64,000 nucleotides of DNA from Trypanosoma brucei. Lineage: Eukaryota. The DNA is taken from positions 4,896,001-4,960,000 of the forward strand of contig CH464491.1 of the NCBI GenBank assembly GCA_000002445.1. Direction: 5' to 3'. Shown in pieces: positions 6,855 through 47,720 of this stretch (position 1 is the stretch's first letter; each line of letters opens with the position of its first letter). Position numbers and translations under genes: made by a program. Under the pieces are notes generated by a model that was not told the origin of the DNA, made no database searches, and saw only the letters and a program-made list of their open reading frames with translations.

Positions 6855-8010
6855 TTGAAAATAATGATTAGGCTGCTAACAGCAGCTGCGTTTTTGTTGC
6901 ATGTCGCAACCCGCGGTGGACATGGCGCCGTAGCTGACAGTGACTCCTATGCAGACTTTGCTGCACTATGCAATCTGATAACACTGGCACAAACACCAGT
7001 AGCACCACAAACAGACAAATCCGAAGCTTTGGAGTTGCTCAAGACGATCAAAGCGATAAATATATCAGTTGCGAGCTCGGACATCAGACAGGCACTAACG
7101 CAAGCCCAAAATAAAAAGTGGGCGCAACTATCCCCAGGCCAGACAAAAGGCAAGGAAGGCTGGCAAAATTCATGGGACGACTGGGCAGAAGCAAAAACAT
7201 TTTCAGAGTCTGCCACAAACAAAGCAGCTTTCGAAGAATGGAACGCAAAAACGGTATCAAAAGAGGCGAGGAAAAAGATCGTGTATCTCACGCCTAAAGC
7301 CGTACAGACAGCACAAAGCCTGCCACAACTCCAAACGAAGTTAGCAATGGCCGGTGCACAGGAGGCGGCGCAGAAAGCGTTACTTGGAAGCGACAAAGCC
7401 GCTAACGGCTTAAAACCGGCAGGCACCAACAGGGTGACTGAATGCGGCAAGGCATCAGACGGGGCGAGGGCTGAAGGGGGAGAGTCAGCAGGCAAGGCGC
7501 TCCTGCTAGACCTTCTTTGCCTTTGCGGTGGTCATGCCTCAGACGCCGACGTCGGAAAAGCTTGCTGAAAAAATTGCAACAGCGCCGGCAACAACGACGA
7601 GTGGAACCTGAATAACGACGGCAAAACCCGTGCAAACTTCATCGCAAGTAACTGCCCAAAGGCGCCAGGCCACACGAGAATATCGCAACAAGCAGTAGAA
7701 CAGGCATGGAGACATTTTCTAACGCTCACAGCGATTGCAAAGGGCAGTGGATTCGCGTACCGTAACGCCCTAGGCGTCTTGGCAGCGACAGGAGAGACAG
7801 GCTGCGACGGACATAAAGCGTCCAACGGAGGCCCTTGCGTGCAGTACGGCGATGACGCTGTGGTAACCGGAGCATCACCGCCTACATGGCTCACAAATCA
7901 ACGAACAGCGGCACACATTTGGGACGACGCATACAACGCAATCAGCCAAATCAAGGAAATCGAGCACAAATTAAAAGCCATAAACAACACCCTGCGTTCG
8001 CCGCTCTAGC
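6855..8010 (+). pseudogene. VSG pseudogene, N-terminal domain only (frameshift, 3'-truncated)
   Basis: Signal peptide plus ADFAALCNLITLAQT. ORF 6855-7568 continues in another frame 7779-8009 (CDGHKASNGGPC...). No C-terminal domain before the gap and ingi sequence. Confidence 0.75.
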
Positions 8011-8082
8011 AAGATGAGCCGACACAAAATATGCAGAAAGCGGCCGCCACGCCGATGATAGCGGAAAAAACACACAGACTGC

Positions 8083-8182
8083 NNNNNNNNNNNNNNNNNN
8101 NNNNNNNNNNNNNNNNNNNNNNNNNNNNNNNNNNNNNNNNNNNNNNNNNNNNNNNNNNNNNNNNNNNNNNNNNNNNNNNNNN
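8083..8182. other. Assembly gap (100 N)
   Basis: Run of N. Confidence 1.
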
Positions 8183-8308
8183 TGGGCGCCTGGAGTATGC
8201 GTACCGACAATCANTGTTCCCTGAAGGAAGCTGCTGGCTCTTGGCTTCTTTGATGATACGGGGTACTGGATCTCTGACACCACGTTGAGGTGGCCGGCAT
8301 CGCCAGGG
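8183..8308 (-). mobile_element. ingi/RIME 5'-end fragment (truncated by gap)
   Basis: The reverse complement matches the ingi/RIME 5' terminus CCCTGGCGATGCCGGCCACCTCAACGTGGTGTCAGAGATCCAGTACCCCGTATCATCAAAGAAGCCAAGAGCCAGCAGC. Confidence 0.8.
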
Positions 8309-8590
8309 TATGAAGCAAAATTTTTTTTTAATTTTCTTCGTGCCTTCGTGAGAGTTTCTCCCAACTGGCGCGGCCATCAGCCATCACCGTAGAGCCCTGA
8401 GATGCTATCGGTCTGGCGACTGTGGCAGAGTCTCCCTTTTTTATTCATCCTAACACACCCTCTATAATTTTTGTTGTAGCTCCGCAGTTGAACGGAATAC
8501 AGTAGATGGGGCGAGAAGCCCCCCTCACCCCGGACTCTCCCAAAGATGTCAATTAGCAATCCTTTTGTTTTGTTTTTTGTTATTCGTTTA

Positions 8591-9238
8591 TTATTCTCTC
8601 CCCCTCTTTCTGTTTCTGTTTTTGTTGCTTGTTGACTGCATACCTCCTCTGTCTCTGAGGGTGTCTGGACTATTCCTGCGTCCGGTGCTTTTCCTGCTGG
8701 CTCCACACTCGGCAATAAGGGGGGAAGTTGCAGAAGGGAGAGTGGGTTGTATGACTGTTACCTTAGGTGAGGACTTCACCTGCGGCCGGCTCCGTTCAAC
8801 CGCAATGAGAAACTGCGCCAGCCTTTTGGAGAAACATACATCCTGCACACACTCACCTTCTACCGCAAATCTGACACGTAACTCCTTCAAACCGGGACAG
8901 CTCATCAAGTGCAGCGACGTTTCTTCGCAGTCGCCGCGTTGGCTGGTAACAGCGCGCTCTACCTTCATACCGTGCATCTTCTTTTGATGTAGGGTGAGGC
9001 CAGTTTTGCTAGCACACTGCCTTCCGCATGTCGGGCACACCAACATGGATGTGTTTGTATGCGGGGAATCAGTGGCACACAATTTTGTGCTTTTGCTGCA
9101 TTTAAGCTCGACTCCCTCACCTTTGTGGAAAGCCTTACAGTGTCGGATGAGGGAGTCCCTGCAACTGAGCACTTTTTGGCACACACCACACTGCACCTCG
9201 CCTTTCGCCGGGACGTCAAAAATTTCCCTCACGGGCAC
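8591..9238 (-). CDS. ingi ORF fragment: C-terminal C2H2 zinc-finger region
   Basis: CGVCQKVLSCRDSLIRHCKAFH and CPTCGRQCASKTGLTLHQKKMH. Confidence 0.7.
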   Translation of the reverse strand: MPVREIFDVPAKGEVQCGVCQKVLSCRDSLIRHCKAFHKGEGVELKCSKSTKLCATDSPHTNTSMLVCPTCGRQCASKTGLTLHQKKMHGMKVERAVTSQRGDCEETSLHLMSCPGLKELRVRFAVEGECVQDVCFSKRLAQFLIAVERSRPQVKSSPKVTVIQPTLPSATSPLIAECGASRKSTGRRNSPDTLRDRGGMQSTSNKNRNRKRGRE

Positions 9239-10505
9239 GCTTACGAGGGAATTGCACCACCACGGTACCGTCCTCCGTCACTATGCTTTTATGTTTGAAT
9301 TTCTTGTGTAGTGACAGGGAAGAGCGTGTACCGAAGCTCGCCTCGCACAGGTCACATTGAAACGGCAGCTTCCGTGTATCCTGAGGGGCTGGCGGTGCTG
9401 GGGCTCTACCATCTCCTTGCAATGAGTCTTCGTTCTCTCGCCCCCTTTTCACGCGGCAACTACCGCTGCCTATGCCATGTATTGTTCTAAGGTGGTGTAA
9501 TAGTCGGCCTGGCACTGCGAATTTGGAGGTACAGAGGGTACAATGAAGCACCTGCGGTCTCATCGGGACTCGTGTGCTCGACGGTAGAGGAACGATCGCC
9601 ACCACTGGAGGGGGCTCCAGGGGGATATCCACTATAGGTGTTGCATCGCCGTATTTGATCTTTCGAAGGGCATCAGCTCGCATAAAGCCATGTTTGCTTA
9701 CCATATGCGTTACAGCACTCGAGCGGCATTGGTATGTGGCATCACATTCCGTACATTTGGTCGGTTCGGAGGTTCTCTGAAGAGTGCGTGTCACAACAGT
9801 TGGGACCGTTTGTATTGTTGGTCCTATCGCTGCATGTTGCGGGTTACACCATCGGCACTGTGGAGGCACACTCGAATTGATCTTTCGCAACATCCATCCA
9901 TAGTGCCTTGAAGACCCAACCCGAAAGCGTGCCAGTGCCGTTTCTTCTTCCCTCGTCAGTTCTTCTTTATGTTTTGTTGGAAAGTGGTTGCCCGTGATAC
10001 CAAACCTATGAGTGTTCTCATAGACTTCTTCCGACCTAAGCACTCGCTTCGCATAAGCAATGATGTCGGGGATCAATGTGTCTCGCAACTGTGGTAAATC
10101 TGCGGCCTTTTTCGCCATGTCATCGCAAACCTCATTCTGTTTCACGCCACAATGGACAAACACAAATTGCAGTCGTATACGCACCTTTCTTCTCTGAACT
10201 TGAAGCAGAAGCCTCCATAGTCGTCTTAGAATTGGGTCCGTTGCGGCTAGGGGGCTTGTCTGCAGTACTGTTAACATTGACAGCGAGTCAGAGAAGATGG
10301 ACAACCTGCTCGGTGTGGTTCTGTATGCCGGAAGCCATTTCAGCAGCCGTTGCAGTCCTATCTCTAATGCTACGCATTCCGCTCTGTAACTGAATGAGAG
10401 TTCCCCTGCTCCGGTCTTGGGTGCACAAATCAGCGTGTTGTTTCTATAGAGCAGGGCAGCTGCTCCGGACTTCTCACCGAGGGACACGGATCCATCAGTC
10501 CACAA
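9216..10505 (-). CDS. ingi ORF fragment: RNase H-like region
   Basis: MWTDGSVSLGEKSGAAALLY..., colinear with the matching ingi copy 2 ORF. Confidence 0.7.
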   Translation of the reverse strand: MWTDGSVSLGEKSGAAALLYRNNTLICAPKTGAGELSFSYRAECVALEIGLQRLLKWLPAYRTTPSRLSIFSDSLSMLTVLQTSPLAATDPILRRLWRLLLQVQRRKVRIRLQFVFVHCGVKQNEVCDDMAKKAADLPQLRDTLIPDIIAYAKRVLRSEEVYENTHRFGITGNHFPTKHKEELTREEETALARFRVGSSRHYGWMLRKINSSVPPQCRWCNPQHAAIGPTIQTVPTVVTRTLQRTSEPTKCTECDATYQCRSSAVTHMVSKHGFMRADALRKIKYGDATPIVDIPLEPPPVVAIVPLPSSTRVPMRPQVLHCTLCTSKFAVPGRLLHHLRTIHGIGSGSCRVKRGRENEDSLQGDGRAPAPPAPQDTRKLPFQCDLCEASFGTRSSLSLHKKFKHKSIVTEDGTVVVQFPRKRAREGNF

Positions 10506-10520
10506 TTCGTAGTGCTCTCG

Positions 10521-13076
10521 TCACGGTGGCTCCTTCCCTCTCCGTGCAAAATGCCGTGCAATCCACTTTTCGGAAGCCTCCCTTTTGACATCTTCAGGGT
10601 CATCAGCGCACACAGGCTTTATCTGCGTGTGAAATAGCGGTCGGCAGCTGTGGCGGAGCGTCGATGTCTCTAGTGGGTGCTCGCGTGGCTCAATGCGGAG
10701 GTGGGGATAGGACCGCATGATACGGGAATGTAGGGCTCTGACTGGGTGTTTGCTGTGGTATACTTCTTCAGCACTGCGCCGCAAACATCCGCCTCGTGAC
10801 TCACACATCAGCATGAATTTCATGCTGCGTACAAGAGTGGTCGTCTTGAGTGGCAGGAGGTTTGCTTCCAGCAGAGAGTCCTCTTTGCGCGTCCCATGCG
10901 GTATGCCGGCTATGATGTGACTGGCTTTGTGTTGCGTTGCTGCAAGGAGGTCACGACTTCGTTTTGAAGCGTCCCAGTACCATACCTCAATCCCATACAT
11001 GGTGTGTGCCTGTACGATTACTAGATAAAAAGCTCTCAGTACTTGTCGTCTTGGCCCCCATGTAGAAGCTGAGATGGCTGCTATCTGCAGTAGTCTGAAG
11101 TCCATCTTGCGTCTCGTTTCGGTCGCATGTGTTGCCATCCCCTGCAGACACTGGAATGTTACTCCTAGAAGCTTCGGTGTCCTGTCAGCTCCTATTCTTT
11201 CGCCGTCCAGTTGTAATGTAAGGGGGTGGCGCTCTATACACCCGAAGAGTGTGCACTTTGTTTTCGCTACGTTGACAGACATGAAGTACTCTTGTGACCA
11301 CTGTAACACCACGTTGAGGCCGCATTGCAGTGTGTGGTTGATGACATCCCTCTCTGTGTGTCTCGCAAGTAGCGTCAGGTCGTCTGCAAAGAATCCGTGC
11401 TGCAGTAACGGCACTTCTGCAAGGCGTTGGCTCAACGAGTTCATGACAATAATGAACATGATTGACCCAAGGACAGTTCCTTGTGTCACTCTTCGCTCAA
11501 ATGTTCTGCTTCTGGAAAGCTTCTCCTTGAATCTCACTCTGCCAGTTCGGTTACTCAGAAATGATACGCACCACTTCACAATGTGGGGTGATACCTTCAT
11601 TCTGTGCATTTCCCTCGCAATTTTGTCGTTGTACACTGTATCGAATGCCTTCTCGTAGTCAACGAATACAGCACCCGTACGAGATTGATGCGTGGGGCGG
11701 CAAAGGGCAGCACCGACCTGCAGGAGTTGTTCGAGTGTTGAGCATCCGGGGCGAAAGCCTGATTGCTGCGGCGTCAGCTGGGACTCAACAGTGTCTCTAA
11801 GCCTCGCGGCAATTATGCGCTCCATGACTTTGCAGAGACAGCTCGTGAGCGTCACAGGCCTGTAAGAATCGAGGTCCTCCGCCTTTTTTCCGGCCTTCAG
11901 GATGGGGATGATAACACCAGTCTTCCATGCAGGCGGCACGACTCCCCTTCGTAGGCTGTCATTGAATAGCCTCAGAACAACATTCTGCGCTGTGTTACAG
12001 AGATGTTGCAGTGCCTCGTTGTATAAGCAATCAGGTCCGGCTGCGGATCCACTCGGTAGCAGTTTGATCGATCTCCGTAGTTCAGCCATAGTGATGGGAC
12101 TGAACTCACTCGCTATCGTCTTTATGGGTGCCGGTGGGTGTGAGTCGGGGTGCCTTCTTGCCCGGGATGAGTACAGTTTAATGAACCTCTCAGCTTGACG
12201 GTAGTCCGTGATGGCCGCGTTATCAACAAGTACCGCCGCTGTGGTTAGTGGTCGTGGCGCATATACCTTCTTGACAATGTGCCAACTGCAGCGGTCTGAC
12301 ACCGCAAGTATGGAGCATAGCGTGTTCCATCTCTTCTTTGTGGTACGGTCCAGTATCTGCTTACACGTGGCTACCAACTTTTCCCTTCGATAGGAGGGTC
12401 CGCAACCAGCGATCTCTTCATCGAGTTTCGCGAGCTCAGGTGTCCAATGTGGTGGCGTTGCTCTGCAGCCACGGGGGACGGAGACCTTCGTCGCAATGCG
12501 GATGGCGGAGCTCAATTTCTGTTCCAGGGTGTTGACGTTCTTCTCTCTACCAATTTTCCTGCAGAGCTCGTCAACCTTGAGATGGAAATTCCTCCAGTCA
12601 GCTTTTAGCCATGCGTACATGGGCTTTCGAAGCCGCGGGCAACTCAGTGCATCTGTGTCGTCTCCAACGATAACGTCAAAAAATATGTGATGGTGATCAC
12701 TATCGGGAGAATACAGCGATGTCCACGTGTAAACTGTGCAATTCCTTGACAGTGCCACATCAGGGGTGGACTCTCCGTGGTGGCGCGCGTACCTGGTGTA
12801 CTCACCAGTGTTGCAGACCAGAAACTGGTTGTCAATGCACCACTGTGTGAGGGTTTCACCCTTGGTATTTGGTGGGCTCGCGCGATCCCATGCCAAAGCG
12901 TGTGCGTTAGCCTCTACACCGATGAGCTGGGCCCCGTCAGTCGTCAGAAGCGTATCTAGGTCAGTTGCCGTGAAGGTGTGTTTTGGTGGGATGTATGCCG
13001 ACGTGACGGTCAGCGCAGTTTCACGTGCAAGGTGAATTGTTGCATGCACTTGTTCAATGCGACCAACAACGGTCAT
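10521..13076 (-). CDS. ingi ORF fragment: endonuclease C-terminal part plus reverse transcriptase
   Basis: RT motifs FVDYEKAFDTV and FADDLTLL. Ends at an in-frame TGA before the RNase H segment. Confidence 0.8.
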   Translation of the reverse strand: MTVVGRIEQVHATIHLARETALTVTSAYIPPKHTFTATDLDTLLTTDGAQLIGVEANAHALAWDRASPPNTKGETLTQWCIDNQFLVCNTGEYTRYARHHGESTPDVALSRNCTVYTWTSLYSPDSDHHHIFFDVIVGDDTDALSCPRLRKPMYAWLKADWRNFHLKVDELCRKIGREKNVNTLEQKLSSAIRIATKVSVPRGCRATPPHWTPELAKLDEEIAGCGPSYRREKLVATCKQILDRTTKKRWNTLCSILAVSDRCSWHIVKKVYAPRPLTTAAVLVDNAAITDYRQAERFIKLYSSRARRHPDSHPPAPIKTIASEFSPITMAELRRSIKLLPSGSAAGPDCLYNEALQHLCNTAQNVVLRLFNDSLRRGVVPPAWKTGVIIPILKAGKKAEDLDSYRPVTLTSCLCKVMERIIAARLRDTVESQLTPQQSGFRPGCSTLEQLLQVGAALCRPTHQSRTGAVFVDYEKAFDTVYNDKIAREMHRMKVSPHIVKWCVSFLSNRTGRVRFKEKLSRSRTFERRVTQGTVLGSIMFIIVMNSLSQRLAEVPLLQHGFFADDLTLLARHTERDVINHTLQCGLNVVLQWSQEYFMSVNVAKTKCTLFGCIERHPLTLQLDGERIGADRTPKLLGVTFQCLQGMATHATETRRKMDFRLLQIAAISASTWGPRRQVLRAFYLVIVQAHTMYGIEVWYWDASKRSRDLLAATQHKASHIIAGIPHGTRKEDSLLEANLLPLKTTTLVRSMKFMLMCESRGGCLRRSAEEVYHSKHPVRALHSRIMRSYPHLRIEPREHPLETSTLRHSCRPLFHTQIKPVCADDPEDVKREASEKWIARHFARRGKEPP

Positions 13077-13760
13077 ACCTATCTAGGCTGGTAGGTCCTC
13101 CCTCACTAGTATTGATACACCACCTCCTTTGCAGTTACGAGCTATTCCGTGATGTTGGTAGCCAGCAACGCTAAAGCAAGCCGCCCCTCCAGGCGTCATC
13201 CTTGTCTCACTCAACAGACAAAAGGCGATCCGCTCATCAACAAGGGTTTTGTGGAGTGCTAATCTCTTTCCTTGAGATAGCCCGGCGCAGTTTCACTGCA
13301 TCCCGCACAACGACGGGCTGGGATTCTCTTCCACATCACCGGACAGCAGCATCTTAGTGCGGATGATACTGCTGATGGCACGCTGGCACGTGCCCAGGGA
13401 CCGACAAATGAAAAACGGTGTCCCAGCAAGACGCTGCTGATCCCTGTGCTGTATGATGCCGTATCCGGAGCAAAGCAGTGTTCCCCATGAAAGGAACGCT
13501 GCTGGCTCTTGGCTTCCCCCGATGATACGGGGTACTGGACCCTGGCACCACGTTGAGGTGGCCGGCGTCGCCAGGGAAATTTTCTATTTGCTACAAAACT
13601 GGAAACGTAGCAAGAATTTTTCTCTTTTTTGCAGCCATCTGTGCATTCTTTCTTTCCTTTCCTTTTGGATTTCCCCTGCTTGCTCTCCTTTTTCTGCTTT
13701 AGCTTTGCATTTTTAAAATATAAGTGTCACTATCGCAGTCGAGAGTTTTGCATTCCTCTG

Positions 13761-15008
13761 CTATTTTTTGGTGTGTTTGGCGCATTCTTGCGTCAGTGTG
13801 CTTGTCCCAGTTATTAGCGTTAGCTTTCCACTGGTGTGTACATGTGCCGGTACTGTTGATAAGAGGTGGTTAAAAACTGCTTCCGCTTGCCAGCTGAGCA
13901 TGCTCATTTCCGCAATTACTTTATTTTGCTGCGCACAACCGGCCAGTGTCTTCTCTATTTCTTGCGCTGCAGCCTCTAGGTTATCTTCGTATCCAGTTGC
14001 GGCTGCTAATTTGGTAGTTTTGTGTTTCGTGAATTTGCTGAATTCTGCACAGGCGCTGTCAGCTTGGGTGCCGCGGTGGGCTAATGTTCCTTTTGTACCT
14101 ATGTAAACTGCGATGTTCCCGCCTGCCGCGAACGTTTTCCACATTTGCCGGGGTCAGCCCGCTGCTGTCCGAACCGCCGCTGGTGTCAGGTCGCCTTTGT
14201 TGTACGCTTCGCACATGGTTATCAGTGCATCGCCTGCGTTGGTGTAGGTTGTAGGAGTTGCGGCGTCCGCGGCGATGTTCCGTGTGGTTGTTGGAGCTGA
14301 GCAAATGTCGATCGTCATCGTTCCCGAGTGTTTGCTGCACACACAAGCCAGCGACGTGCAAATGGAGTCGGTGGCGTTATCGTCTTTGCAGATGTCTTGC
14401 CTTGTTGAACCCGTTGGGGTCATGCACCGGTCTTCGTCGGTTTTGCCTGCCGTGTCCTGTCCAAACACTGCTTTGTTTATGAAGCCATCTATGTGAGCTT
14501 TGTCCCCCTCAATGGCTGGTTTTATATCTGTGGCATGCTGTTCCGCTAACCGCCTAGCGTACTCGGTGATCGCGGCTATTGTTAGAGCCGCCTGGCCTTC
14601 CGCACTGCGCATTGTGCTGTCGCCTATGTATTTGTTCCCAGGTCTGACGCCTTCGCTGTGAGCTGTAATGTTCGCTTTCGCATGAGCTTTCCACTGTTTG
14701 TGGCACTGTGGAAGCTCGTTATTGTCTTTGCATGGGTTTTGTCGGCGTTAACGATTTGCGGCTTTGTTGGGAACTGCTTTGCCCAATCGGGGTGTGCAAG
14801 TGACATGTCAAGGGCTTCTATTATTTCGTATGTTGCTTCGACATCTTCGACAGCTGGTAAGACTGTGTCCTTTGCCTGCCGCAAGTTTACAATGTCGCAT
14901 AGGACATCTAGTTCTGCTAGGTTTTTTTGCGTTAGCGTCGTCTGCTGCGCTGGCTTGCTCGGCAGAAATAAGCAAAGCCAAAAACACAACGGTGACTAGC
15001 ATATTCAA
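13761..15008 (-). pseudogene. VSG pseudogene, N-terminal domain (frameshifts, no C-terminal domain)
   Basis: Signal peptide MLVTVVFLALLISAEQASA. VSG-like segments in three frames (14624-14989, 14154-14612, 13761-14144). Ends about 185 bp from the ingi 5' end. Confidence 0.7.
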
Positions 15009-26259: not shown

Positions 26260-26310
<51 letters not shown>

Positions 26311-36391: not shown

Positions 36392-36469
36392 AAAAATTTT
36401 CGAAATATAAATCTCATAAACTTCACAAAATTGAGCAGAAAAGCTTAATATCTTTAAAATGATAAAATT

Positions 36470-37892
36470 CTTCTAAACCCACAAAAGCAGCAGCCATCAG
36501 AGTAAATTTCTTATGGAAGAGAAAGCTTGAATCCTTGCAACTATTATTTTCCCATTTGCAGTTCTATCCGTTGTTGCACGCTGTCTGGTTCTGAAAGCTG
36601 CTGCACACAGGTTTTCCAGTATTATCCCCGTCTTTCTTTTCTCCTTTTTTGTCTCCTGAGTCTGCTTTCTTAGGAGAACCCTCAGCATTGGTGGGTTTTT
36701 CTTGTGGCACCGATTTTTGGTTTGTTTGAGCAGTAAATAAAGCCAGTGCTTTGTGGAAATCACTTCCGCTTGCCGTCTCTATGCTCTTTGGTTGAGCGTC
36801 GTCTTGTAGCTTTAGAGCCGCGTTATTTTCTGTCAGTTTCGCTAAAAACTTCTTGGTAATGGTTTCGTCTCCTTTGCCAAGTATGTTCGCTACTGCTGCT
36901 TTGCGCTTATCTGGGTCTTGCTCTTTGTCGCTTTTCGTGGTTAGGATTAGTGCTGTGTCTTGTGCGGTCGGATCGTCTGCTAGTTCGTCTAGGGTTTCGC
37001 TACCGAGTGCTGGTTGGGTTGTTAGGTCAGCCTTTCGCGCAAGGCATACTTTGTACACAAGCTCGCTTGTGTCTGTTGCGTCGTAGTTTTCGTTTGTTTT
37101 TGGTGTCTTGCACGCGTTTTCTGTTTCGATGGAGACGGTTGTGTGTGTGAGCACCTTTTGTTCTGTTGCTAAGCCTTGAATGGGTATGCCATTGCTTCTA
37201 ACACCTGCGTCGTTTCCGCAGCCGTCACTGCCTGTTAGAGCTCTTTTAGCTGCTGGGCTGCTTTTTTCCTGCAACGACGCGAACAGTGGCATCGCTTTGA
37301 TTGTGGCCGCACTAAGCAACTTAAGCTGTGTTTCGGTGGTTACCCGCTCGTCCACCTTGTTAAGTTCTGTTTCCGCTGCTTCCGTGTTGCATTTTCTGTT
37401 AGCTGGCGGCGTCACGATTGGGTGTACTCTGCATCTTGTGTTGAAGTTGCTGTTTTGTGGGTTGGTGGCCGAGTCCGCTTCTGCCGCCACTGTGTACTTT
37501 GCGTCTGCCTTAACAGGCGTTATACGTGATAGAAGTAATACCCCTGTTCTGTGTCCCACATACTCTGAGAGCTAAGTGATTGCTGTCGGTACGGTCTTTT
37601 GTTTGCTGATTTCTTTATCTAGCCACTGCGTTGAAACTGCTTCCAGCAGCGCACATGCCATTCCGAGTTTAGTCGCCGCACGTTGTTCCGCTGCGAGTCT
37701 GAGTTGTTTCTGTTGGTTGCTCAAGGTTTGAACTGTACCGAATAGTTCGGTTAGCTTGCCTGAAAAATGCGTTAGCAAGTTGGCCACGTATTTTCTCTCA
37801 GTACAGTCGTCTTGTACTGCTTTAGCCGGTGTTCCTGGAGTGGCCAGTGCCACGTTGGTTGTTACAAGTAAGGCTGTGGCTATTAACAACAT
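36470..37892 (-). pseudogene. VSG pseudogene (in-frame stop plus C-terminal frameshift)
   Basis: Signal MLLIATALLVTTNVALA in ORF 37572-37892. An in-frame stop separates it from ORF 36564-37559. The tail CKWENNSCKDSSFLFHKKFTLMAAAFV is in another frame. Confidence 0.75.
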
Positions 37893-39713
37893 AGTCTACT
37901 TATTCTTGGCGGCACCTTTTTTTTGTTACTACTGTGGTTTTGGTGTTCTGCTTGTAGGTCTTTTTGTTAGTGTTTAAAAGGGGGAAGATCCTTGTGGTTT
38001 CTGATGTTAACGGTGCGAGATTGGCCGCTTACATGGAGGTTGGTCGTCTGCGGGTTGGCTTATAATTAATGCATCAACTTTCCAAACTTGTACACAAAAT
38101 AACCTCTTCCCTTCTTGCCTCTGTTTTTTTGTCGCTACGCTTCTCTCTTTGTGTCAAACGCTATAAGCTCCCATATTTGCGTGCTATATCAGTGTTGAAA
38201 TATCTTCCCAGTTACCACTTTTGTCAGCACAAGTATTGTAACTAACATCGCAGTTTCTCGACCAAACGTCTGCGAAACTACAGGCGCTTTCCAGTTAGCT
38301 CCATCACCGCTTTTCTTCTCACTTAGCGATACTGTGGCATAGTTAAACCTAATCTTGCTTATAGTTGAGCTTAGTAGATTTGTTGAGGCTTTTTCATTGT
38401 TTTTCGGTGTACATTTTGGTGCTTCTTACCTTGGGTTTGTTGGTGAACTCTTTTTGGATGTTAAATTGTTTAATTGGGGATTTATTGTTTCTAAAGCTTT
38501 TATTCTGTCTGTCATACTGACTCAGTCCTTTTGTGTAGCGCATAAAGATAAATGCACAAAGAAATCACTCTATATATACTCATTTTGACACTACCCCTAG
38601 TTATTTTCAGATTTCTATTTACTTTTTTCATTCGTTCAAATATTAGAGTTTGACCATATGTAGCGTGAAACTGAGAACTGGATGTTGTTTCTAAGTTGGT
38701 GTTAATGTGTTAGCCCTCTGGCCATCTCTGTACGCAATAATTCTCCGCTTGTGGTTACGCCTTGTTTGCGCACATTATCTTAATAATTGTTATGATTTCT
38801 TTGATTTCTGTTTTATCGTGCACTTTTCTAGCATATGGTGCCCTGCCGGAAGCTATTGTGCATCTAGACGTATTTTTATTTTAATTGTCCCCTTTGTGTC
38901 CCCTTTACTTTAATAATAAGATTCTGTGGATGCCGCTGAAGTGGCCGCTGCTTATATTAGATTTTTCTGAATGTACTAATACCGCTGTAGAATGCTCTAC
39001 TATACTTGATGCCTTGATACTTCTTGCGGTTTCAGTATTAGGTAATTTATTATTGGGCTATTATATATATTGATTATCCTTTGAAAGACAAATGTCTCAC
39101 TTATTATAATATGTAAGTTATCATTTTCAATGGTCGTGCCTTTCACCTGTTCACCCTCTGAAAGGTTAGCTTTGTCATAGAAACCCATTGTGTCAATGAC
39201 GTAAATTTTGTTTTGCGACACTTTTCTACTTTATCTTTTAACCATATCGTTCCATATTAAATTCGGTAGAATATCTTTATATTTCTGGCAGTCCATGTGA
39301 CTCCGAAAGCAGTGCATATATTTCTATGCCTGAAAATTCAAAGCGTGTGTTCTTTATTGGTTCTACTTGGAGGAAGATCTTCATTACATGTTTCATAATC
39401 AAACATGTACCGTTGCTGTTCTGCACTGAGACGGTTCCTCTTCTGCATGTCCTTCCGATTGTTGCTTATTTTACATCACCAGATTATTTTGGCTCGAAAC
39501 TTGTTTGTAACTAGTAGGCTCCGTCCCTTTTCTTTTCTTTCATTTTGTGCTTCAACTCTGCGTAAGCAAGAACTCTTATATAATTTGTCCTTACTACGAA
39601 AACAAGAAATTTGGAAGCCGTATGTCAGTGTGAATTTTGCAGAGTTCTGCCGCTAATTCTCCACTCTTCACGAAGGTTATCTAATGGTTAATACGTGCTC
39701 TACTCCCTTGTAA

Positions 39714-40283
39714 CGCCAGCCACCTCAACGTGGTGCCAGGGTCTAGTGCTCCGTCTCATCGGGGGAAGCCAAGAGCCAGCAGCGTTCCTCTTTTGGAACA
39801 CTGCTGTGCTCCGGCTACGGCATCATACAGCACAGGGATCAGCAGCGTCTTGCTGGGACACCGTTTTTCATTTGTCGGTCCCTGGGCACGTGCCAGCGTG
39901 TCATCAGCAGTATCATCCGCACTAAGATGCTGCTGTCCGGTGATATGGAAGAGAATCCCAGCCCGTCGTTGTGCGGGATGCAGTGGAACTGCGCCGGGCT
40001 ATCTCAAGGAAAGAGATTAGCACTCCACAAAACCCTTGTTGATGAGCGGATCGCCTTTTGTCTGTTGAGTGAGACAAGGATGACGCCTGGAGAGGCGGCT
40101 TGCTTTAGCGTTGCTGGCTACCAACATCACGGAATAGCTCGTAACTGCAAAGGAGGTGGTGTATCAATACTAGTGAGGGAGGACCTACCAGTCGAGACCG
40201 GTATAGCCGTTGTTGGTCACATTGAAAAAGTGCATGCAACAATTCACCTTGCACGTGAAACGGCGCTGACTGTCACGTCGGCA
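39714..40283 (+). mobile_element. ingi 5' fragment (about 570 bp) in + orientation, abutting the poly(A) end of the - strand ingi
   Basis: GCCAGCCACCTCAACGTGGTGCCAGGG... encodes MLLSGDMEENPSPSLCGMQWNCAGLSQGKRLALHK...ARETALTVTSA. It ends one base before the poly-T at 40284. Confidence 0.85.
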
Positions 40284-40551
40284 TTTTTTTTTGAATTTTC
40301 TTCGTGCCTTCGTGAGAGTTTCCCCCCACTGGCGCGGCCATCAGCCATCACCGTAGAGCCCTGAGATGCTATCGGTCTGGCAACTGTGGCAGAGTCTCAC
40401 CTTTTTTATTCAGCCTAACACTCTCTATAATTTTTGTTGTAGCTCCGCAGTTGAACGGAACACAGCAGATGGGGCGACAAGCCTCCCACCCTAGACTCTC
40501 CCAAAGATGTCAATTAGCAATCCTTTTGTTTTGATTTTTGTTATTCGTTTA

Positions 40552-42444
40552 TTATTCTCTTCCCCTCTTTCTGTTTTTGTTGCTTGTTGACTGCATACCC
40601 CTTCTGTCTCTGAGGGTGTCTGGACTATTCCTGCGGTTGGTGCTTTTCCTGCTAGCTCCACACTCGGCAATAAGGGGGGAAGTTGCAGAAGGGAGAGTGG
40701 GTTGTATGACTGTTACCTTAGGGGAGGACTTCACCTGCGGCTGGCTCCGTTCAACCGCAATGAGAAACTGCGCCAGCCTTTTGGAAAAACATATATCCTG
40801 CACAAACACACCTTCTACCGCAAACCTGACACGTAACTCCTTCAAACCGGGACAGCTCATCAAGTGCAGCGACGTTTCTTCGCAGTCGCCGCGTTGGCTG
40901 GTAACAGCGCGCTCTACCTTCATACCGTGCATCTTCTTTTGATGTAGGGTGAGGCCAGTTTTGTTAGCACACTGCCTTCCGCATGTCGGGTACACCAACA
41001 TGGATGTGTTTGTATGCGGGGAATCAGTGGCACACAATTTCGTGCTTTTGCTGCATTTAAGCTCGACTCCCTCACCTTTGTGGAAAGCCTTACAGTGTCG
41101 GATGAGGGAGTCCCTGCAACTGAGCACTTTTTGACACACACCACACTGCACCTCGACCTTCCCAGGAATGTCAACGTTTCCCTCACGGGCACGCTTACGA
41201 GGGAATTGCACCACCACCACGGTACCGTCCTCCGTCACTATGCTTTTATGTTTGAATTTCTTGTGTAGTGACAGGGAAGAACGTGTACCGAAGCTCGCCT
41301 CGCACAGGTCACATTGAAATGGCAGCTTCCGTGTATCCTGAGAGGCTGGCGCTGCTGGGGATCTACCATCTCCTTGCACTGAGTCCTCGTTCTCTCGCCC
41401 CCTTTTCACGCGGCAACTACCGCTACCTATGCCATGTATTGTTCTAAGGTGGTGTAATAGTCGGCCTGGCACTGCGAATTTGGAGGCACAGAGGGTACAA
41501 TGAAGCACCTGCGGTCTCATCGGGACTCGTGTGCTCGATGGTAGAGGAACGATCGCTACCACTGGAGGGGGCTCCGGGGGGATATCCACTGCAGGTGTTG
41601 CATCGCCGTATTTGATCCTCCGGAGGGCATCAGCTCGCACAAAGCCGTGTTTGTTTACCATGTGCGTTACAGCACTCGAGCGGCATTGATATGTGGCATC
41701 ACATTCCGTACATTTGGTCGGTTCGGAGGTTCTCTGAAGAGTGCGTGTCACAACAGTTGGGGCTGTTTGTATTGTTGGCCCTATCGCTGAATGTTGCGGG
41801 TTGCACCATCGGCACTGTGGAGGCACACTCGGGTTGATCTTTCGCAACATCCATCCATAGTGCCTTGAAGACCCAACCCGAAAGCGTGCCAGTCCCGTTT
41901 CTTCTTCCCTCGTCAGTTCTTCCTTATGTTTTGTCGGAAAGTGGTTGCCCGTGATACCAAACCTATGAGTGTTCTCATGGACTTCTTCCGACATAAGCAC
42001 TCGCTTCGCATAATCAATGATGTCGGGGATCCATGTATCTCGCAGCTGTGGTAAATCAGCGGCCTTTTTGGCCATTTCATCGCAAACCTCATTCCGTTTC
42101 ACGCCACAATGACCAAACACAAATTGCAGTCGGATACGTATCTTCCTTCTCTGAACTTGAAGCAGAAGCCTCCATAGTCGTCTTAGAATTGGGTCCGTTA
42201 CGGCTAGGAGGCCTGTCTGCAGTGCTGTTAACATTGACAGCGAGTCAGAGAAGATGGACAACCTGCTCGGTGTGCTTCTGTATGCCGGAAGCCATTTCAG
42301 CAGCCGTTGCAGTCCTATCTCTAATGCTACGCATTCCGCTCTGTAACTGCATGAGAGTTCCCCTGCTCCGGTCTTGGGTGCACAAATCAGCGTGTTGTTT
42401 CTATAGAGCAGGGCAGCTGCTCCGGACTTCTCACCGAGGGACAC
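40552..42444 (-). CDS. ingi ORF: RNase H-like plus C2H2 zinc-finger C-terminal region (630 aa, GTG start as called by the ORF track)
   Basis: SLGEKSGAAALLYRNN...CTECDATYQCRSSAVTHM...CGVCQKVLSCRDSLIRHCKAFH. Same frame as the upstream ORF, separated by a TGA. Confidence 0.8.
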   Translation of the reverse strand: MSLGEKSGAAALLYRNNTLICAPKTGAGELSCSYRAECVALEIGLQRLLKWLPAYRSTPSRLSIFSDSLSMLTALQTGLLAVTDPILRRLWRLLLQVQRRKIRIRLQFVFGHCGVKRNEVCDEMAKKAADLPQLRDTWIPDIIDYAKRVLMSEEVHENTHRFGITGNHFPTKHKEELTREEETGLARFRVGSSRHYGWMLRKINPSVPPQCRWCNPQHSAIGPTIQTAPTVVTRTLQRTSEPTKCTECDATYQCRSSAVTHMVNKHGFVRADALRRIKYGDATPAVDIPPEPPPVVAIVPLPSSTRVPMRPQVLHCTLCASKFAVPGRLLHHLRTIHGIGSGSCRVKRGRENEDSVQGDGRSPAAPASQDTRKLPFQCDLCEASFGTRSSLSLHKKFKHKSIVTEDGTVVVVQFPRKRAREGNVDIPGKVEVQCGVCQKVLSCRDSLIRHCKAFHKGEGVELKCSKSTKLCATDSPHTNTSMLVYPTCGRQCANKTGLTLHQKKMHGMKVERAVTSQRGDCEETSLHLMSCPGLKELRVRFAVEGVFVQDICFSKRLAQFLIAVERSQPQVKSSPKVTVIQPTLPSATSPLIAECGASRKSTNRRNSPDTLRDRRGMQSTSNKNRKRGRE

Positions 42445-42456
42445 GGATCCATCAGT

Positions 42457-45027
42457 TCACAATTCGTAGTGCTCTCGCCGCGGTGGCTCCTTCCCCCTCC
42501 GTGCAAAATGCCGTGCAATCCACTTTTCGGAAGCCTCCCTTTTGGCATCGTCAGGGTCATCAGCGCACGCAGGCTTTATCTGCGTGTGAAATAGTGATCG
42601 GCAGCTGTGGCGGAGCGTCGATGTCTCTAGTAGGTGCTCGCGTGGCTCAATGCGGAGGTGAAGGTAAGACCGCATGGTGCGGGAATGTAGGGCTTTGACT
42701 AGATGTTTGCTGTGGTATACTTCCTCAGCACTGCGCCGCAAACATCCGCCTCGTGACTCACACATCAGCATGAATTTCATGCTGCGCACAAGAGTGGTCG
42801 TCTTGAGTGGCAGGAGGTTTGCCTCCAGCAGAGAGTCCTCTTTGCGCGTCCCATGGGGTATGCCAGCTATGATGCAACTGGCTTTGTGTTGTGCTGCTGA
42901 AAGGAGATCGCGACTTCGTTCCGAAGCGTCCCAGTACCATACCTCAATGCCATACATGGTATGTGCCTGTACGAGTGCTAGATAAAAAGCTCTCAGTACT
43001 TGTCGTCTTGGCCCCCATGTAGAAGCTGAGATGGCTGCTATCTGCAGTAGTCGGAAGTCCATCTTGCGTCTCGTTTCGGCCGCATGTGTTGCCATCCCTT
43101 GCAGACACTGGAATGTTACTCCTAGAAGCTTCGGTGTCCTGTCAGCTCCTATTCTTTCGCCGTCCAGTTGTAATGTAAGGGGGTGGCGCTCTATACACCC
43201 GAAGAGTTTGCACTTTGTTTTCGCTACGTTGACAGACATAAAGTCCTTTTTTGACCACTGTAACACCACGTTGAGACCGCATTGTAGTGTGTGGTTGATG
43301 ACATCCCTCTCGGTGTGCCTCGCAAGTAGCGTTAGGTCGTCTGCAAAGAATCCGTGCTGCAGTAACGGCACTTCTACAAGGCGTTGGCTCAACGAGTTCA
43401 TGACAATAATGAACATGATTGGGCCAAGGACAGTTCCTTGTGGCACTCCTCGCTCAAATGTTCTGCTTCTGGAAAGCTTCTCCTTGAATCTCACTCTGCC
43501 AGTTCGGTTACTCAGAAATGATACGCACCACTTCACAATGTGGGGTGATACCTTCATTCTGTGCATTTCCCTCGCAATGCTGTTGTGTTCTACTGTATCA
43601 AATGCCTTCTCGTAGTCAACGAATACAGCACCCGTACGATATTTGTGCGTGGGACGGCAGAGGGCAGCGCGGACGTGGAGGAGTTGTTCGAGCGTTGAAC
43701 ATCCGGGGCGAAAGCCTGATTGCTGCGGCGTCAGCTGGAACTCAACAATGTCTCTAAGCCTCGTGGCAATTATGCGCTCCATGACTTTGCATAGACAGCT
43801 CGTGAGCGTCACAGGCCTGTAAGAATCGAGGTCCTCCGCCTTTTTTCCGGCCTTCAGGATGGGGATGATAACACCAGTCTTCCATGCAGGCGGCACGACT
43901 CCCGTTCGTAGGCTCTCATTGAATAGCCTCAGAACAACATTCAGCGCTGTTCTGCCGAGATGTTGCAGTGCCTCGTTGTGTAAGCAATCAGTTCTTGCTG
44001 CAGATCCACTCGGTAGCAGTTTGATCGATCTCCGTAGCTCAGCAATCGTGATGGGACTGAACTCACTCGCTATCGTCTTTATGGGTGCCGGTGGGTGTGA
44101 GTCGGGGTGTCTTCTTGCGCGGGACGAGTACAGTTTAATGAACCTCTCAGCTTGACAGTAGTCCGTGATGGCCGCGTTATCAACAAGTACAGCCGGTGTG
44201 GTTAGTAGTCGTGGCGCATATACCTTCTTGACAATGTGCCAACTGCAGCGGTCTGACACCGCAAGTCTGGAGCATAGCGTGCTCCATCTCTTCTTTGTGG
44301 TACGGTCCAGTATCTGCTTACGCGTGGCTACCAACTTTTCCCTTCGGTGGGAGGGTCCGCATCCAGCGATCTCTTCATCGAGTTTCGCGAGCTCAGGTGT
44401 CCAATGTGATGGCGTTGCTCTGCAGCCACGGGGGACGGAGACCTTCGTCGCAATGCGGATGGCGGAGCTCAATTTCTGTTCCAGGGTGTTGACGGTTTTT
44501 TCTCTACCAATTTTCCCGCAGAGCTCGTCAACCTTGAGACGGAAATTCCTCCAGTTAGCTTTTAGCCATGCGTACATGGGCTTTCGAAGCCGCGGGCAAC
44601 TCAGTGCATCTGTGTCCTCTCCGACGATAACGTCGAAAAATATGTGATGGTGATCGCTATCGGGAGAATACAGCGATGTCCACGTGTCCACTGTGCAATT
44701 CCTTGACAGTGTCACATCAGGGGTGGACTCCCCGTGGTGGCGCGCGTACTTTGTGCACTCACCAGTGTTGCAGACCAGAAACTGGTTGTCAATGCACCAC
44801 TGTGTGAGGGTTTCACCCTTGGTATTTGGTGGGTTCGCGCGATCCCATGCCAACGCGTGTGCGTTAGCCTCTACACCGATGAGCTGGGCCCCGTCAGTCG
44901 TCAGAAGCGTATCTAGGTCAGTTGCCGTGAAGGTGTGTTTTGGTGGGATGTATGCCGACGTGACAGTCAGCGCCGTTCCACGTGCAAGGTGAATTGTTGC
45001 ATGCACTTGTTCAACTCCCCCCAACAA
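42457..45027 (-). CDS. ingi ORF: endonuclease plus reverse transcriptase (856 aa)
   Basis: FVDYEKAFDTV, FADDLTLL. About 95% identical to the 10521-13076 ORF. Confidence 0.85.
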   Translation of the reverse strand: MLGGVEQVHATIHLARGTALTVTSAYIPPKHTFTATDLDTLLTTDGAQLIGVEANAHALAWDRANPPNTKGETLTQWCIDNQFLVCNTGECTKYARHHGESTPDVTLSRNCTVDTWTSLYSPDSDHHHIFFDVIVGEDTDALSCPRLRKPMYAWLKANWRNFRLKVDELCGKIGREKTVNTLEQKLSSAIRIATKVSVPRGCRATPSHWTPELAKLDEEIAGCGPSHRREKLVATRKQILDRTTKKRWSTLCSRLAVSDRCSWHIVKKVYAPRLLTTPAVLVDNAAITDYCQAERFIKLYSSRARRHPDSHPPAPIKTIASEFSPITIAELRRSIKLLPSGSAARTDCLHNEALQHLGRTALNVVLRLFNESLRTGVVPPAWKTGVIIPILKAGKKAEDLDSYRPVTLTSCLCKVMERIIATRLRDIVEFQLTPQQSGFRPGCSTLEQLLHVRAALCRPTHKYRTGAVFVDYEKAFDTVEHNSIAREMHRMKVSPHIVKWCVSFLSNRTGRVRFKEKLSRSRTFERGVPQGTVLGPIMFIIVMNSLSQRLVEVPLLQHGFFADDLTLLARHTERDVINHTLQCGLNVVLQWSKKDFMSVNVAKTKCKLFGCIERHPLTLQLDGERIGADRTPKLLGVTFQCLQGMATHAAETRRKMDFRLLQIAAISASTWGPRRQVLRAFYLALVQAHTMYGIEVWYWDASERSRDLLSAAQHKASCIIAGIPHGTRKEDSLLEANLLPLKTTTLVRSMKFMLMCESRGGCLRRSAEEVYHSKHLVKALHSRTMRSYLHLRIEPREHLLETSTLRHSCRSLFHTQIKPACADDPDDAKREASEKWIARHFARRGKEPPRREHYEL

Positions 45028-45526: not shown

Positions 45527-45646
45527 CGCCAGGGGGAACAGGTCATAGCATCCAACTACAAAACGGTTCGCAGCTGGCAGTTTCTGGCAGTAAAAACAGC
45601 CGATAACATAAGGAGGTCAGGCTTCAAAGCCCTAGTTGTTTATGGA

Positions 45647-47149: not shown

Positions 47150-47720
<571 letters not shown>

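What the first reader, a model, noticed from the sequence alone, without database searches (positions are those of the whole stretch)
8183..13760. Both transcription-polarity switches of the VSG array coincide with full-length ingi elements and truncated VSGs
Plus-strand VSGs run to 8010; minus-strand VSGs run from 13761. The convergent junction is filled by ingi copy 1 plus an extra ingi 5' fragment. Both bordering VSGs (6855-8010 and 13761-15008) are N-domain-only stumps that lose their C-terminal domains at the ingi. The divergent junction (37892 to 45647) holds ingi copy 2 plus an inverted ingi 5' fragment, and the first + VSG (45647-) lacks its signal peptide right at the ingi 5' end. This pattern suggests ingi copies mark or mediate inversion breakpoints between array segments, rather than being simple insertions into one gene.
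Basis: partly seen in the sequence, partly recalled or inferred. Interest (0 to 1): 0.5.

Follow-up and report, generated by a model that had tools for sequence, protein, structure and literature searches.

The report
Ingi retroposons at VSG array boundaries
In this published Trypanosoma brucei surface-antigen gene array, two full-length ingi retroposons do sit where gene orientation flips, but one flip lies in an unsequenced gap and nothing shows that the ingi copies caused an inversion, so the feature is a known kind of subtelomeric scar.

Summary
The window is T. brucei brucei TREU927, from a 5.26-Mb record, inside a silent VSG array.

**Confirmed**
- Two full-length ingi copies lie at 8321-13576 and 40285-45534. 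They are 95% identical and both are on the minus strand.
- They sit between a plus block, a 24-kb minus block and a second plus block.
- Extra ingi 5' pieces lie at 8183-8308 and 39704-40284.
- The first VSG of the second plus block (45535-) lacks 62 N-terminal codons, cut exactly at ingi nucleotide 1.

**Not confirmed**
- The "convergent junction" is a 100-N assembly gap (8083-8182). VSG 6855- is cut by the contig end, not by an ingi.
- A near-identical T. equiperdum contig continues past that point. It carries the full C-terminal domain, another plus-strand VSG, and then a plus-oriented ingi/RIME 5' end.
- VSG 13577-15008 keeps its C-terminal domain and loses only the last 14 codons.

**Interpretation**
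- Neither full-length ingi has the 12-bp target-site duplication, and their flanks are unrelated. So they are not simple insertions.
- The two copies are direct repeats, so they cannot be the two products of one inversion.
- Three possible inversion pairings all fail the target-site duplication test.
- Recombination between same-orientation copies, causing a deletion or unequal exchange, explains both most simply.

Retroposon build-up at strand switches and ingi-mediated rearrangement are already documented. Interest is low.

The parts
6864..8082 (+). B-type VSG pseudogene, the last plus-strand VSG before the gap. It is cut by the contig end, not by an ingi.
   Evidence: Pfam VSG_B 2-221/352. 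The OVI contig L002 continues with a full Trypan_glycop_C domain and GPI signal.
8083..8182 (.). 100-N assembly gap of unknown content. The real convergent switch lies in here.
   Evidence: OVI contig L002 shows at least 2.3 kb beyond 8082: the C-terminal domain, another plus-strand VSG, and a plus-oriented ingi/RIME 5' end.
8183..8308 (-). Element X, the 5' end of another ingi-clade retroposon. It contains the Pr77 region, its 5' end is at 8308, and it runs into the gap. It is 87% identical to ingi over 8209-8308 and has one N at 8214.
8309..8320 (-). Exactly 12 nt (TTTTGCTTCATA on the minus strand) between the poly(A) of copy 1 and nucleotide 1 of X. This is the canonical tandem-retroposon spacing.
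   Evidence: Tandem elements separated by a 12-bp target-site duplication are described in PMC3820030.
8321..13576 (-). ingi copy 1, full length (5256 nt). It is degenerate, with its reading frame broken into three pieces. It has no target-site duplication.
13577..15008 (-). VSG-a, a B-type pseudogene with frameshifts. Its C-terminal domain is present. It is truncated 14 codons before the stop, in the GPI signal (...SSFVANRKF|), exactly at ingi nucleotide 1.
   Evidence: The same junction is present in OVI contig L003.
24056..24297 (-). Element Z, the 3'-truncated 5' 242 nt of an ingi/RIME. It lies 268 nt upstream of VSG 23787, inside the same-strand array and not at a switch.
36465..37892 (-). 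First (most upstream) VSG of the minus block. It has a signal peptide at 37892 and contains frameshifts.
37893..39703 (.). 1.8 kb of AT-rich sequence upstream of that VSG. It has no similarity elsewhere in the window.
39704..40284 (+). Element Y, ingi nucleotides 1-583 on the plus strand. It is 3'-truncated and abuts the poly(A) end of copy 2.
40285..45534 (-). ingi copy 2, full length (5250 nt) and degenerate. It has no target-site duplication. Its 3' flank is the inside of Y.
45535..46894 (+). VSG-b, an A-type (VSGsur-like) pseudogene. It lacks its first 62 codons exactly at ingi nucleotide 1 and has a frameshift in the GPI signal.
   Evidence: OVI contig L001 is 100% identical and starts 30 nt inside the ingi.
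47362..47461 (.). Second 100-N gap, inside a (TAA)n tract that has the same polarity on both sides. This supports the orientation of contig 8183-47361.
58968..64000 (+). Degenerate ingi-related element (DIRE) following VSG 57391. Its 5' end sits at the same GPI-signal codon as copy 1 does in VSG-a. It is not at a visible switch.

Best explanation
This is a retroposon-rich boundary zone in the silent subtelomeric VSG archive of T. brucei TREU927.

**What each full-length ingi looks like**
- Each is a chimeric element.
- Its 5' junction is a genuine, precise retrotransposition junction into a VSG. Copy 1 is in sense orientation in the GPI-signal codons of VSG-a. Copy 2 is in antisense orientation at codon 63 of VSG-b.
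- Its 3' junction belongs to a different insertion. Copy 1 lies in tandem 12 nt upstream of element X. Copy 2 is nested in antisense at position 583 of element Y.

**Most economical history (inferred)**
- In each case two ingi copies lay in the same orientation a few kb apart.
- They recombined homologously, by deletion or unequal exchange between 5.2-kb repeats.
- This removed the DNA between them, including the tail of VSG-a and the head of VSG-b.
- It left one hybrid element without a target-site duplication.

**Consequence**
- On this reading the ingi copies accumulated in, and then trimmed, boundaries that were already there. They did not create the polarity switches.
- The convergent switch itself is not in the sequence. 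It lies in the gap at 8083-8182, probably between a plus-oriented element (as in T. equiperdum) and the minus-oriented X.

**Shown versus inferred**
- Shown: element map, orientations, exact junctions, missing target-site duplications, the gap, and the OVI continuation.
- Inferred: the recombination step and its direction.
For: - **Element map.** Both full-length copies are on the minus strand and are 95% identical along their whole length, with no mosaic block.
- **5' junctions.** Both are exact at CCCTGGCG, ingi nucleotide 1.
  - VSG-b homology begins at the first codon after the ingi.
  - VSG-a homology ends 14 residues before the C-terminus of its homologues.
- **No 12-bp target-site duplication**.
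  - Copy 1: AATAGAAAATTT at the 5' flank and TTTTGCTTCATA at the 3' flank.
  - Copy 2: ATGACCTGTTCC at the 5' flank and TGCCGACGTGAC at the 3' flank.
  - Tbingi/RIME normally make a 12-bp duplication and often sit in tandem separated by exactly that duplication (PMC3820030).
- **Fit to a deletion between direct repeats.** Such a deletion predicts a 3' flank from the left element and a 5' flank from the right element. That is what is seen at both copies.
- **3'-truncated pieces.** Y and Z cannot come from target-primed reverse transcription, which truncates 5' ends. So post-insertion breakage or recombination is common in this array, including at Z, where polarity does not change.
- **Gap evidence.** The gap and the OVI contig show that the plus array continues past 8082.
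- **Literature.**
  - ingi/RIME recombine and cause rearrangements between T. brucei subspecies (PMC2854126).
  - Retroposons accumulate in strand-switch regions (PMC4748587; PMC4035085).
  - ingi occur within VSG arrays (PMC3553974).
Against: - The deleted intermediates are hypothetical. No second genome with the un-recombined state was found.
- T. equiperdum OVI has the same two junctions.
- Divergence between copy 1 and copy 2 is uniform, so there is no internal sign of a crossover point. That comparison could not reveal one anyway, because the parental copies are unknown.
- Both full-length copies landing in the two switch intervals has a nominal P of about 0.01. A pure passenger model explains this only by appealing to the known preference for strand-switch regions.
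- An assembly chimera through a 5-kb repeat would give the same flank discordance.
Confidence: 0.5

Rival explanations
1. Homologous recombination between inverted ingi copies flipped an array segment. The ingi copies at the two switches would then be the recombinant products and the cause of the polarity change.
For: - Flanks of both full-length copies are discordant and lack target-site duplications.
- Plus-oriented partners exist: Y at 39704-40284 and, in OVI, element W just beyond the gap.
- W (plus, left) and copy 2 (minus, right) have the right geometry. Their 3' ends face inward and truncated plus-strand VSGs lie outside.
- Intergenic segments on the two sides of the divergent junction are mirror-image paralogues in the same outward order (70-79% identity).
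Against: - The two full-length copies are direct repeats, so they cannot be the pair.
- The predicted target-site duplication exchange fails for all three testable pairings: Y with copy 1 (5/12), W with copy 2 (4/12), W with copy 1 (8/12). Elements about 95% conserved should retain at least 11/12.
- The 3' flank of copy 2 is the inside of another ingi, not the missing part of VSG-c.
- The mirror paralogues are only 70-79% identical and the VSGs between them are unrelated (23-30% identity). So any inverted duplication may be much older than the ingi copies.
- OVI shows the same junctions, so there is no polymorphism.
Confidence: 0.15
2. This is an assembly artefact. The discordant flanks, and the convergent switch itself, would arise from joining reads or contigs of different loci through the 5.2-kb ingi repeat and from scaffolding across the 100-N gap.
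For: - A gap lies exactly at the convergent junction.
- The contig end next to it is poor: one N at 8214 and only 87% identity to ingi.
- The short-read OVI assembly breaks at every ingi edge, so it gives no independent support across either element.
- Order and orientation of contig 1-8082 relative to the rest rest only on the scaffold.
Against: - Copy 1 and copy 2 differ at about 5% of positions, spread evenly. That is enough for Sanger reads to keep them apart.
- Gap 2 is flanked by (ATA)n and (TAA)n of the same polarity, which supports the orientation of contig 8183-47361.
- The four VSG/ingi edge junctions that can be checked are identical in an independent assembly of T. equiperdum.
Confidence: 0.12
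3. No homologous recombination took place. Independent insertions, including a nested one, landed in pre-existing switch regions. Target-site deletions or later end-joining deletions then removed one flank.
For: - 3'-truncated pieces Y and Z show breakage without an obvious homologous partner.
- Retroposons are known to pile up in strand-switch regions.
- A VSG fragment carrying only the C-terminal domain lies at 29947-30400 with no retroposon beside it. So VSG truncation happens without ingi too.
Against: - End-joining deletions would have to stop exactly at ingi nucleotide 1 and at the poly(A) or 12-nt spacer on both elements, leaving two perfectly full-length copies.
- Recombination inside the elements explains that precision more naturally.
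Confidence: 0.15

Closest known systems
Tbingi / RIME non-LTR retroposons of T. brucei, including tandem arrangements separated by the 12-bp target-site duplication (Bringaud et al. 2004, as summarised in PMC3820030)
   Same: - Length of 5.25 kb, CCCTGGCG... Pr77 5' end, and a short poly(A) tail.
- Endonuclease, RT, RNase H and C2H2 zinc-finger domains.
- Copy 1 and X are head-to-tail with exactly 12 nt between them.
   Different: - Neither full-length copy has a matching 12-mer on its other side.
- Three pieces (X possibly, Y and Z) are 3'-truncated, which retrotransposition itself does not produce.
Accumulation of ingi/L1Tc-clade retroposons in strand-switch regions of trypanosomatid genomes (PMC4748587, PMC4035085)
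   Same: Retroposon clusters occupy both places where gene orientation changes.
   Different: The published statements concern Pol II polycistron boundaries, mainly in core regions. Here the switches are between silent VSG sub-arrays.
ingi/RIME-mediated rearrangements between T. b. brucei and T. b. gambiense (PMC2854126)
   Same: Elements with unrelated flanks lie at the borders of rearranged segments in repetitive regions, and gaps hamper confirmation.
   Different: No second haplotype or strain with the alternative arrangement was available here. T. equiperdum OVI shares the junctions.
Recombination-associated deletions between same-orientation LINE or SINE copies in mammals (general knowledge, not tested here)
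   Same: One hybrid full-length element remains, it has no target-site duplication, and its flanks come from two different insertion sites.
   Different: This is only an analogy. The parental copies are not observed.

Membership tests
Tbingi (ingi-clade autonomous non-LTR retroposon) | About 5.2 kb long, with the conserved 5' Pr77 hallmark starting CCCTGGCG and a 3' A-run | tested here: met
   Copies are 5256 and 5250 nt. The 5' ends and poly(A) tails were read directly.
Tbingi (ingi-clade autonomous non-LTR retroposon) | Encodes AP-type endonuclease, reverse transcriptase, RNase H and a C2H2 zinc finger | tested here: met
   Pfam Exo_endo_phos_2, RVT_1 and RNase_H hits, plus a sub-threshold zf-C2H2 hit. 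The reading frames are broken, so both copies are degenerate.
Tbingi (ingi-clade autonomous non-LTR retroposon) | Flanked by a 12-bp target-site duplication | tested here: not met
   Between 7 and 8 mismatches out of 12 for both full-length copies, even allowing for ambiguity in A-run length. This argues against an undisturbed insertion. It does not argue against the elements being ingi.
Tandem ingi/RIME arrangement from repeated insertion at one site | Elements lie head-to-tail, separated by exactly the 12-bp target-site duplication, with the same 12-mer on the outer flanks | tested here: inconclusive
   The 12-nt spacing between copy 1 and X is met. The 12-mer is absent from the 5' flank of copy 1. 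The 3' flank of X is in the gap.
VSG gene (A- or B-type) at the junctions | N-terminal domain, C-terminal domain and GPI signal | tested here: met
   - VSG 6864-: VSG_B, with the C-terminal domain seen in the OVI continuation.
- VSG-a: full-length alignment to VSG 818 and 1125.248, minus 14 residues.
- VSG-b: alignment to T. evansi, 1125.1695 and VSGsur from residue 63.
- All three are pseudogenes.
Inversion by recombination between inverted repeats | The two recombinant repeats lie in opposite orientation at the two ends of the inverted segment | tested here: not met
   Copy 1 and copy 2 are both on the minus strand. Only Y, or the OVI-inferred W, could serve as inverted partners.
Inversion by recombination between inverted repeats | Target-site duplications exchanged between the two recombinant elements | tested here: not met
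   Y with copy 1 gives 5/12, W with copy 2 gives 4/12, and W with copy 1 gives 8/12.
Inversion by recombination between inverted repeats | The alternative orientation is present in related strains | not testable with these tools
   Only short T. equiperdum OVI contigs could be retrieved. They share the VSG/ingi edges but do not span the elements. No DNA search of trypanosome genomes is available.
DIRE (degenerate ingi-related element), 58968-64000 | Long and degenerate, with a Pr77-like 5' end and remnants of ingi ORFs | tested here: met
   The Pr77-like start aligns with ingi 5' ends. tblastn to ingi ORFs gives 24-49% identity in colinear order. No Pfam hits reach threshold.

The most novel reading that the evidence does not exclude
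The minus block may be a true ingi-mediated inversion whose reciprocal partner lies hidden in the 8083-8182 gap. Separately, the conserved GPI-signal codons of VSG genes (...SSF[LV][VA]N[KR][KN]F|) may be a recurrent target for ingi-clade endonucleases. If both hold, retroposon insertion into VSG 3' ends followed by ingi-ingi recombination would be a regular way of cutting and re-orienting blocks of the antigen archive.
Probability: 0.12. Interest if true: 0.35.

Novelty: already known. Interest (0 to 1): 0.15.

Why it matters
The silent VSG archive is the raw material for antigenic variation. How its blocks are shuffled, trimmed and oriented affects which genes can be copied into expression sites.

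ingi elements inside VSG arrays, retroposon build-up at strand switches and ingi/RIME-driven rearrangements are already in the literature, and this locus is part of the published reference genome. The practical value of this check has three parts:
- It flags that one of the two "junctions" is an assembly gap.
- It corrects the description of two bordering VSGs.
- It shows that the visible elements point to deletion-type recombination rather than inversion.

The one lead worth a genome-wide count is that two different retroposons hit the same GPI-signal codon.

Tried and rejected
- **Pfam on the tail of VSG-a.** The hit was only sub-threshold (E 0.66). tblastn to other C-terminal domain ends and alignment to full-length homologues settled the question instead.
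- **MAFFT of VSG-b against the window's own A-type VSGs.** They were too divergent to place the N-terminus. A homologue search was needed.
- **Look-ups of OVI contigs around Y and across gap 2.** The query ORFs were 36564-37292, 37572-37892 and 48587-49099. No exact protein was on record.
- **Look-up with the C-terminal 177 aa of VSG 26666.** It returned a paralogous OVI locus that is 91% identical with different flanks. It is not the syntenic one, so it gave no information.
- **Protein search with a synthetic VSG-tail::ingi-5' fusion peptide, to test for a hot spot.** It found only two RIME ORFs from T. b. gambiense.
- **Sliding-window divergence between copy 1 and copy 2, to look for a crossover.** Divergence was uniform and therefore uninformative.
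- **Rfam scan of the window.** No hits.
- **Papers not held in the library.** Marcello & Barry 2007 and Bringaud et al. 2004 were unavailable. My recollection that the genome papers describe ingi/RHS at VSG array boundaries is therefore unverified.
- **Twin priming as the origin of Y plus copy 2.** Considered and rejected. In twin priming the inverted piece sits at the 5' end of the insertion, not next to the poly(A).
- **Flipping contig 8183-47361.** Considered and rejected. The (TAA)n tract has the same polarity on both sides of gap 2.

Full report
**What the window is**

Exact-sequence look-up places the three intact VSGs of the window in T. brucei brucei TREU927, on a 5,261,801-bp record. 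They are 376-1887, 3305-4720 and 26666-28231, with consecutive accessions EAN80663-5. Pfam confirms A- and B-type VSG N-terminal domains and VSG C-terminal domains throughout.

A tblastn map with a panel of VSG proteins gives seven VSG (pseudo)genes on each strand:
- Plus strand: 376, 3296, 6864, 45497, 50239, 53963 and 57391.
- Minus strand: 13764-14989, 16786-18414, 22205-23787, 26669-28231, 29947-30180, 31344-32573 and 36465-37895.

AT skew changes sign at the same places.

**Retroposon map**

Self-BLAST and repeat finding show the following elements.

| Element | Coordinates | Strand | Notes |
|---|---|---|---|
| Copy 1 | 8321-13576 | minus | Full-length ingi, 5256 nt |
| Copy 2 | 40285-45534 | minus | Full-length ingi, 5250 nt, 95.1% identical to copy 1 |
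| X | 8183/8209-8308 | minus | ingi-clade 5' end, 87% identical |
| Y | 39704-40284 | plus | ingi nucleotides 1-583 |
| Z | 24056-24297 | minus | ingi nucleotides 1-242 |
| DIRE | 58968 to the window end | plus | Degenerate ingi-related element |

Copy 1 and copy 2 carry endonuclease, RT and RNase H domains and a sub-threshold zinc-finger hit. Their frames are broken and their divergence is evenly spread. Z and the DIRE are not at a polarity switch. Y and Z are 3'-truncated, and X may be too. Target-primed reverse transcription does not produce that, so post-insertion breakage is common in this array.

**The convergent junction is a gap**

Positions 8083-8182 are 100 N. There is a further N at 8214, and other 100-N gaps lie at 47362-47461 and 61645-61744. 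The finding begins at 8183, the first base after the gap, but does not mention it.

A T. equiperdum OVI contig was retrieved through the exact protein of ORF 6864-7568 (L002). It is 99.5-99.9% identical to window 1-8082 and runs on for 2289 nt. The extension contains, in order:
- The complete C-terminal domain and GPI signal of VSG 6864 (Pfam Trypan_glycop_C 1-104/104, E 2e-14).
- 70-bp-type repeats.
- Another plus-strand A-type VSG, here called VSG-c, which stops at about residue 296.
- The sequence CCCTGGCGATGCCGGCCACCTC, which is ingi/RIME nucleotides 1-22 in plus orientation. The short-read contig ends there. I call this element W.

So VSG 6855-8010 is not a stump cut by an ingi. The plus array continues into the gap, and the real switch is unsequenced. 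It probably lies between a plus-oriented element and the minus-oriented X.

The (ATA)n and (TAA)n tracts on the two sides of gap 2 have the same polarity. This supports the orientation of contig 8183-47361 relative to what follows. The placement of contig 1-8082 rests only on the scaffold.

**The bordering VSGs**

VSG-a (13577-15008, minus strand):
- It has frameshifts but keeps its C-terminal domain.
- A frameshift-corrected translation aligns end to end with VSG 818 and VSG 1125.248. Those homologues continue for only 14 more residues (ALSM.AEFLSLVVF) beyond ...SSFVANRKF.
- ingi nucleotide 1 follows that codon directly, and OVI has the same junction (L003).

VSG-b (45535-, plus strand):
- It aligns with T. 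evansi Q968L2, VSG 1125.1695 and VSGsur from their residue about 63. Homology starts at the first codon after the ingi.
- OVI contig L001 is 100% identical and starts 30 nt inside the ingi.

Truncation is not specific to ingi borders. A fragment carrying only a C-terminal domain lies at 29947-30400 with no retroposon beside it.

**Are the ingi copies simple insertions?**

No. Tbingi/RIME make a 12-bp target-site duplication and often sit in tandem separated by exactly that 12-mer (PMC3820030).

- Copy 1 is followed by 9 A, then exactly 12 nt (TTTTGCTTCATA), then nucleotide 1 of X. Its 5' flank is AATAGAAAATTT.
- Copy 2 has ATGACCTGTTCC at its 5' flank. At its 3' flank it has TGCCGACGTGAC, which is the antisense interior of Y at position about 583.

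Each element thus combines the 5' junction of an insertion into a VSG with the 3' junction of an insertion next to, or into, another retroposon.

**Was it an inversion?**

Recombination between inverted repeats leaves the two recombinant copies in opposite orientation at the ends of the flipped segment, with target-site duplications exchanged. Copy 1 and copy 2 are direct repeats, so they cannot be such a pair.

I tested the three inverted pairings that visible elements allow:

| Pairing | Matching bases out of 12 |
|---|---|
| Y with copy 1 | 5 |
| W with copy 2 | 4 |
| W with copy 1 | 8 |

None approaches the 11-12 matches expected for elements this young. The partial W/X/Y similarity (..TGCT..A..) looks like target preference.

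Deletion or unequal exchange between two same-orientation copies predicts exactly what is seen at both elements. The 3' flank comes from the left parent, the 5' flank comes from the right parent, and one full-length hybrid remains with no target-site duplication. On that reading the switches pre-existed, and the ingi copies accumulated there and trimmed the neighbouring VSGs.

This is inference, because no genome with the parental state was available.

- Both full-length copies falling in the two switch intervals has a nominal probability of about 0.01. This drops to about 0.08 if all four retroposon clusters are counted (my arithmetic).
- Intergenic segments on the two sides of the divergent junction are mirror-image paralogues in the same outward order:
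  - 34552-35527 with 48532-49510, 79% identical. This pair includes two 69%-identical ORFs.
  - 33827-34157 with 52681-53011, 79% identical.
  - 33210-33748 with 53003-53543, 70% identical.
- This is compatible with an old inverted duplication or inversion centred near the ingi cluster. However, the VSGs between these segments are unrelated, and the 20-30% divergence may long predate the ingi copies.

**Rival: assembly chimera**

A 5-kb repeat, a gap at the junction and a poor contig end make a mis-join possible. The short-read OVI assembly cannot span the elements.

Against this:
- The two copies differ by 5% spread evenly along their length.
- Every VSG/ingi edge that could be checked is identical in OVI.

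**Comparison with what is known**

- Retroposons accumulate in trypanosomatid strand-switch regions (PMC4748587; PMC4035085).
- ingi occur within subtelomeric VSG arrays (PMC3553974).
- ingi/RIME recombine and underlie rearrangements between T. brucei subspecies, often confounded by gaps (PMC2854126).

The locus belongs to the published reference genome. I therefore rate it as already known, with low interest.

**Side observation**

The DIRE after VSG 57391 begins at the same GPI-signal codon (...SSFLVNKNF|CTCTGG) as copy 1 does in VSG-a. This hints at a recurrent target in the conserved VSG 3' end. A protein-level search for further fusions found nothing useful.

Noticed in passing
window 58885-59040 (+) compared with 13505-13660 (-): An old degenerate ingi-related element (DIRE, 58968 to the window end) and the young ingi copy 1 start at exactly the same codon of a VSG GPI-signal sequence (...AA[AT]TTT|C[CT]CTGG). 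This suggests a recurrent retroposon target in the conserved VSG 3' end.
   Followed up: partly
window 33210-35527 (-) compared with 48532-49510 and 52681-53543 (+): Three intergenic segments are mirror-image paralogues (70-79% identity) in the same outward order on the two sides of the divergent junction. The plus side carries an extra VSG cassette at 49511-52680. The VSGs themselves are unrelated.
   Followed up: partly
window 35016-35471 (-) and 48587-49099 (+): A pair of 69%-identical ORFs (151 and 170 aa) with an N-terminal hydrophobic stretch and no Pfam hit lies inside the mirror paralogues. From memory they resemble subtelomeric glycosyltransferase pseudogene fragments. This is unverified.
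   Followed up: partly
window 8083-8182, 8214, 47362-47461, 61645-61744: There are three 100-N assembly gaps and one single N. The second gap sits inside a (TAA)n tract and the third inside the DIRE.
   Followed up: yes
window 24056-24297 (-): A 3'-truncated 242-nt ingi/RIME 5' piece (Z) lies 268 nt upstream of the start codon of VSG 23787, between that VSG and its 70-bp-type repeats at 26038-26469. There is no polarity change here.
   Followed up: yes
window 29947-30400 (-): A VSG fragment with only a C-terminal domain (GPI signal and 3' region present, no N-terminal domain) lies downstream of a T-rich tract. No retroposon is adjacent.
   Followed up: partly
L002 10027-10945 (T. equiperdum OVI contig CZPT02000546.1): A plus-strand A-type VSG, absent from the sequenced part of the window, is interrupted at about residue 296 by a plus-oriented ingi/RIME 5' end. 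It should lie in the TREU927 gap if the two genomes are colinear.
   Followed up: partly
5' flanks of X (8309-8320), Y (39692-39703) and W (L002 10912-10923): The 12-mers upstream of these three elements share ..TGCT..A.. (8/12 for W against X and W against Y, about 5/12 for Y against X). This is probably the target preference of the ingi endonuclease. The flanks of copy 1, copy 2, Z and the DIRE do not share it.
   Followed up: no
L004 (T. equiperdum OVI contig CZPT02001597.1) compared with window 26658-28148: OVI holds a paralogue of VSG 26666-28231 that is 91% identical in DNA. Its last 177 residues are identical but its flanks differ. This is an example of C-terminal domain sharing between archive VSGs.
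   Followed up: no
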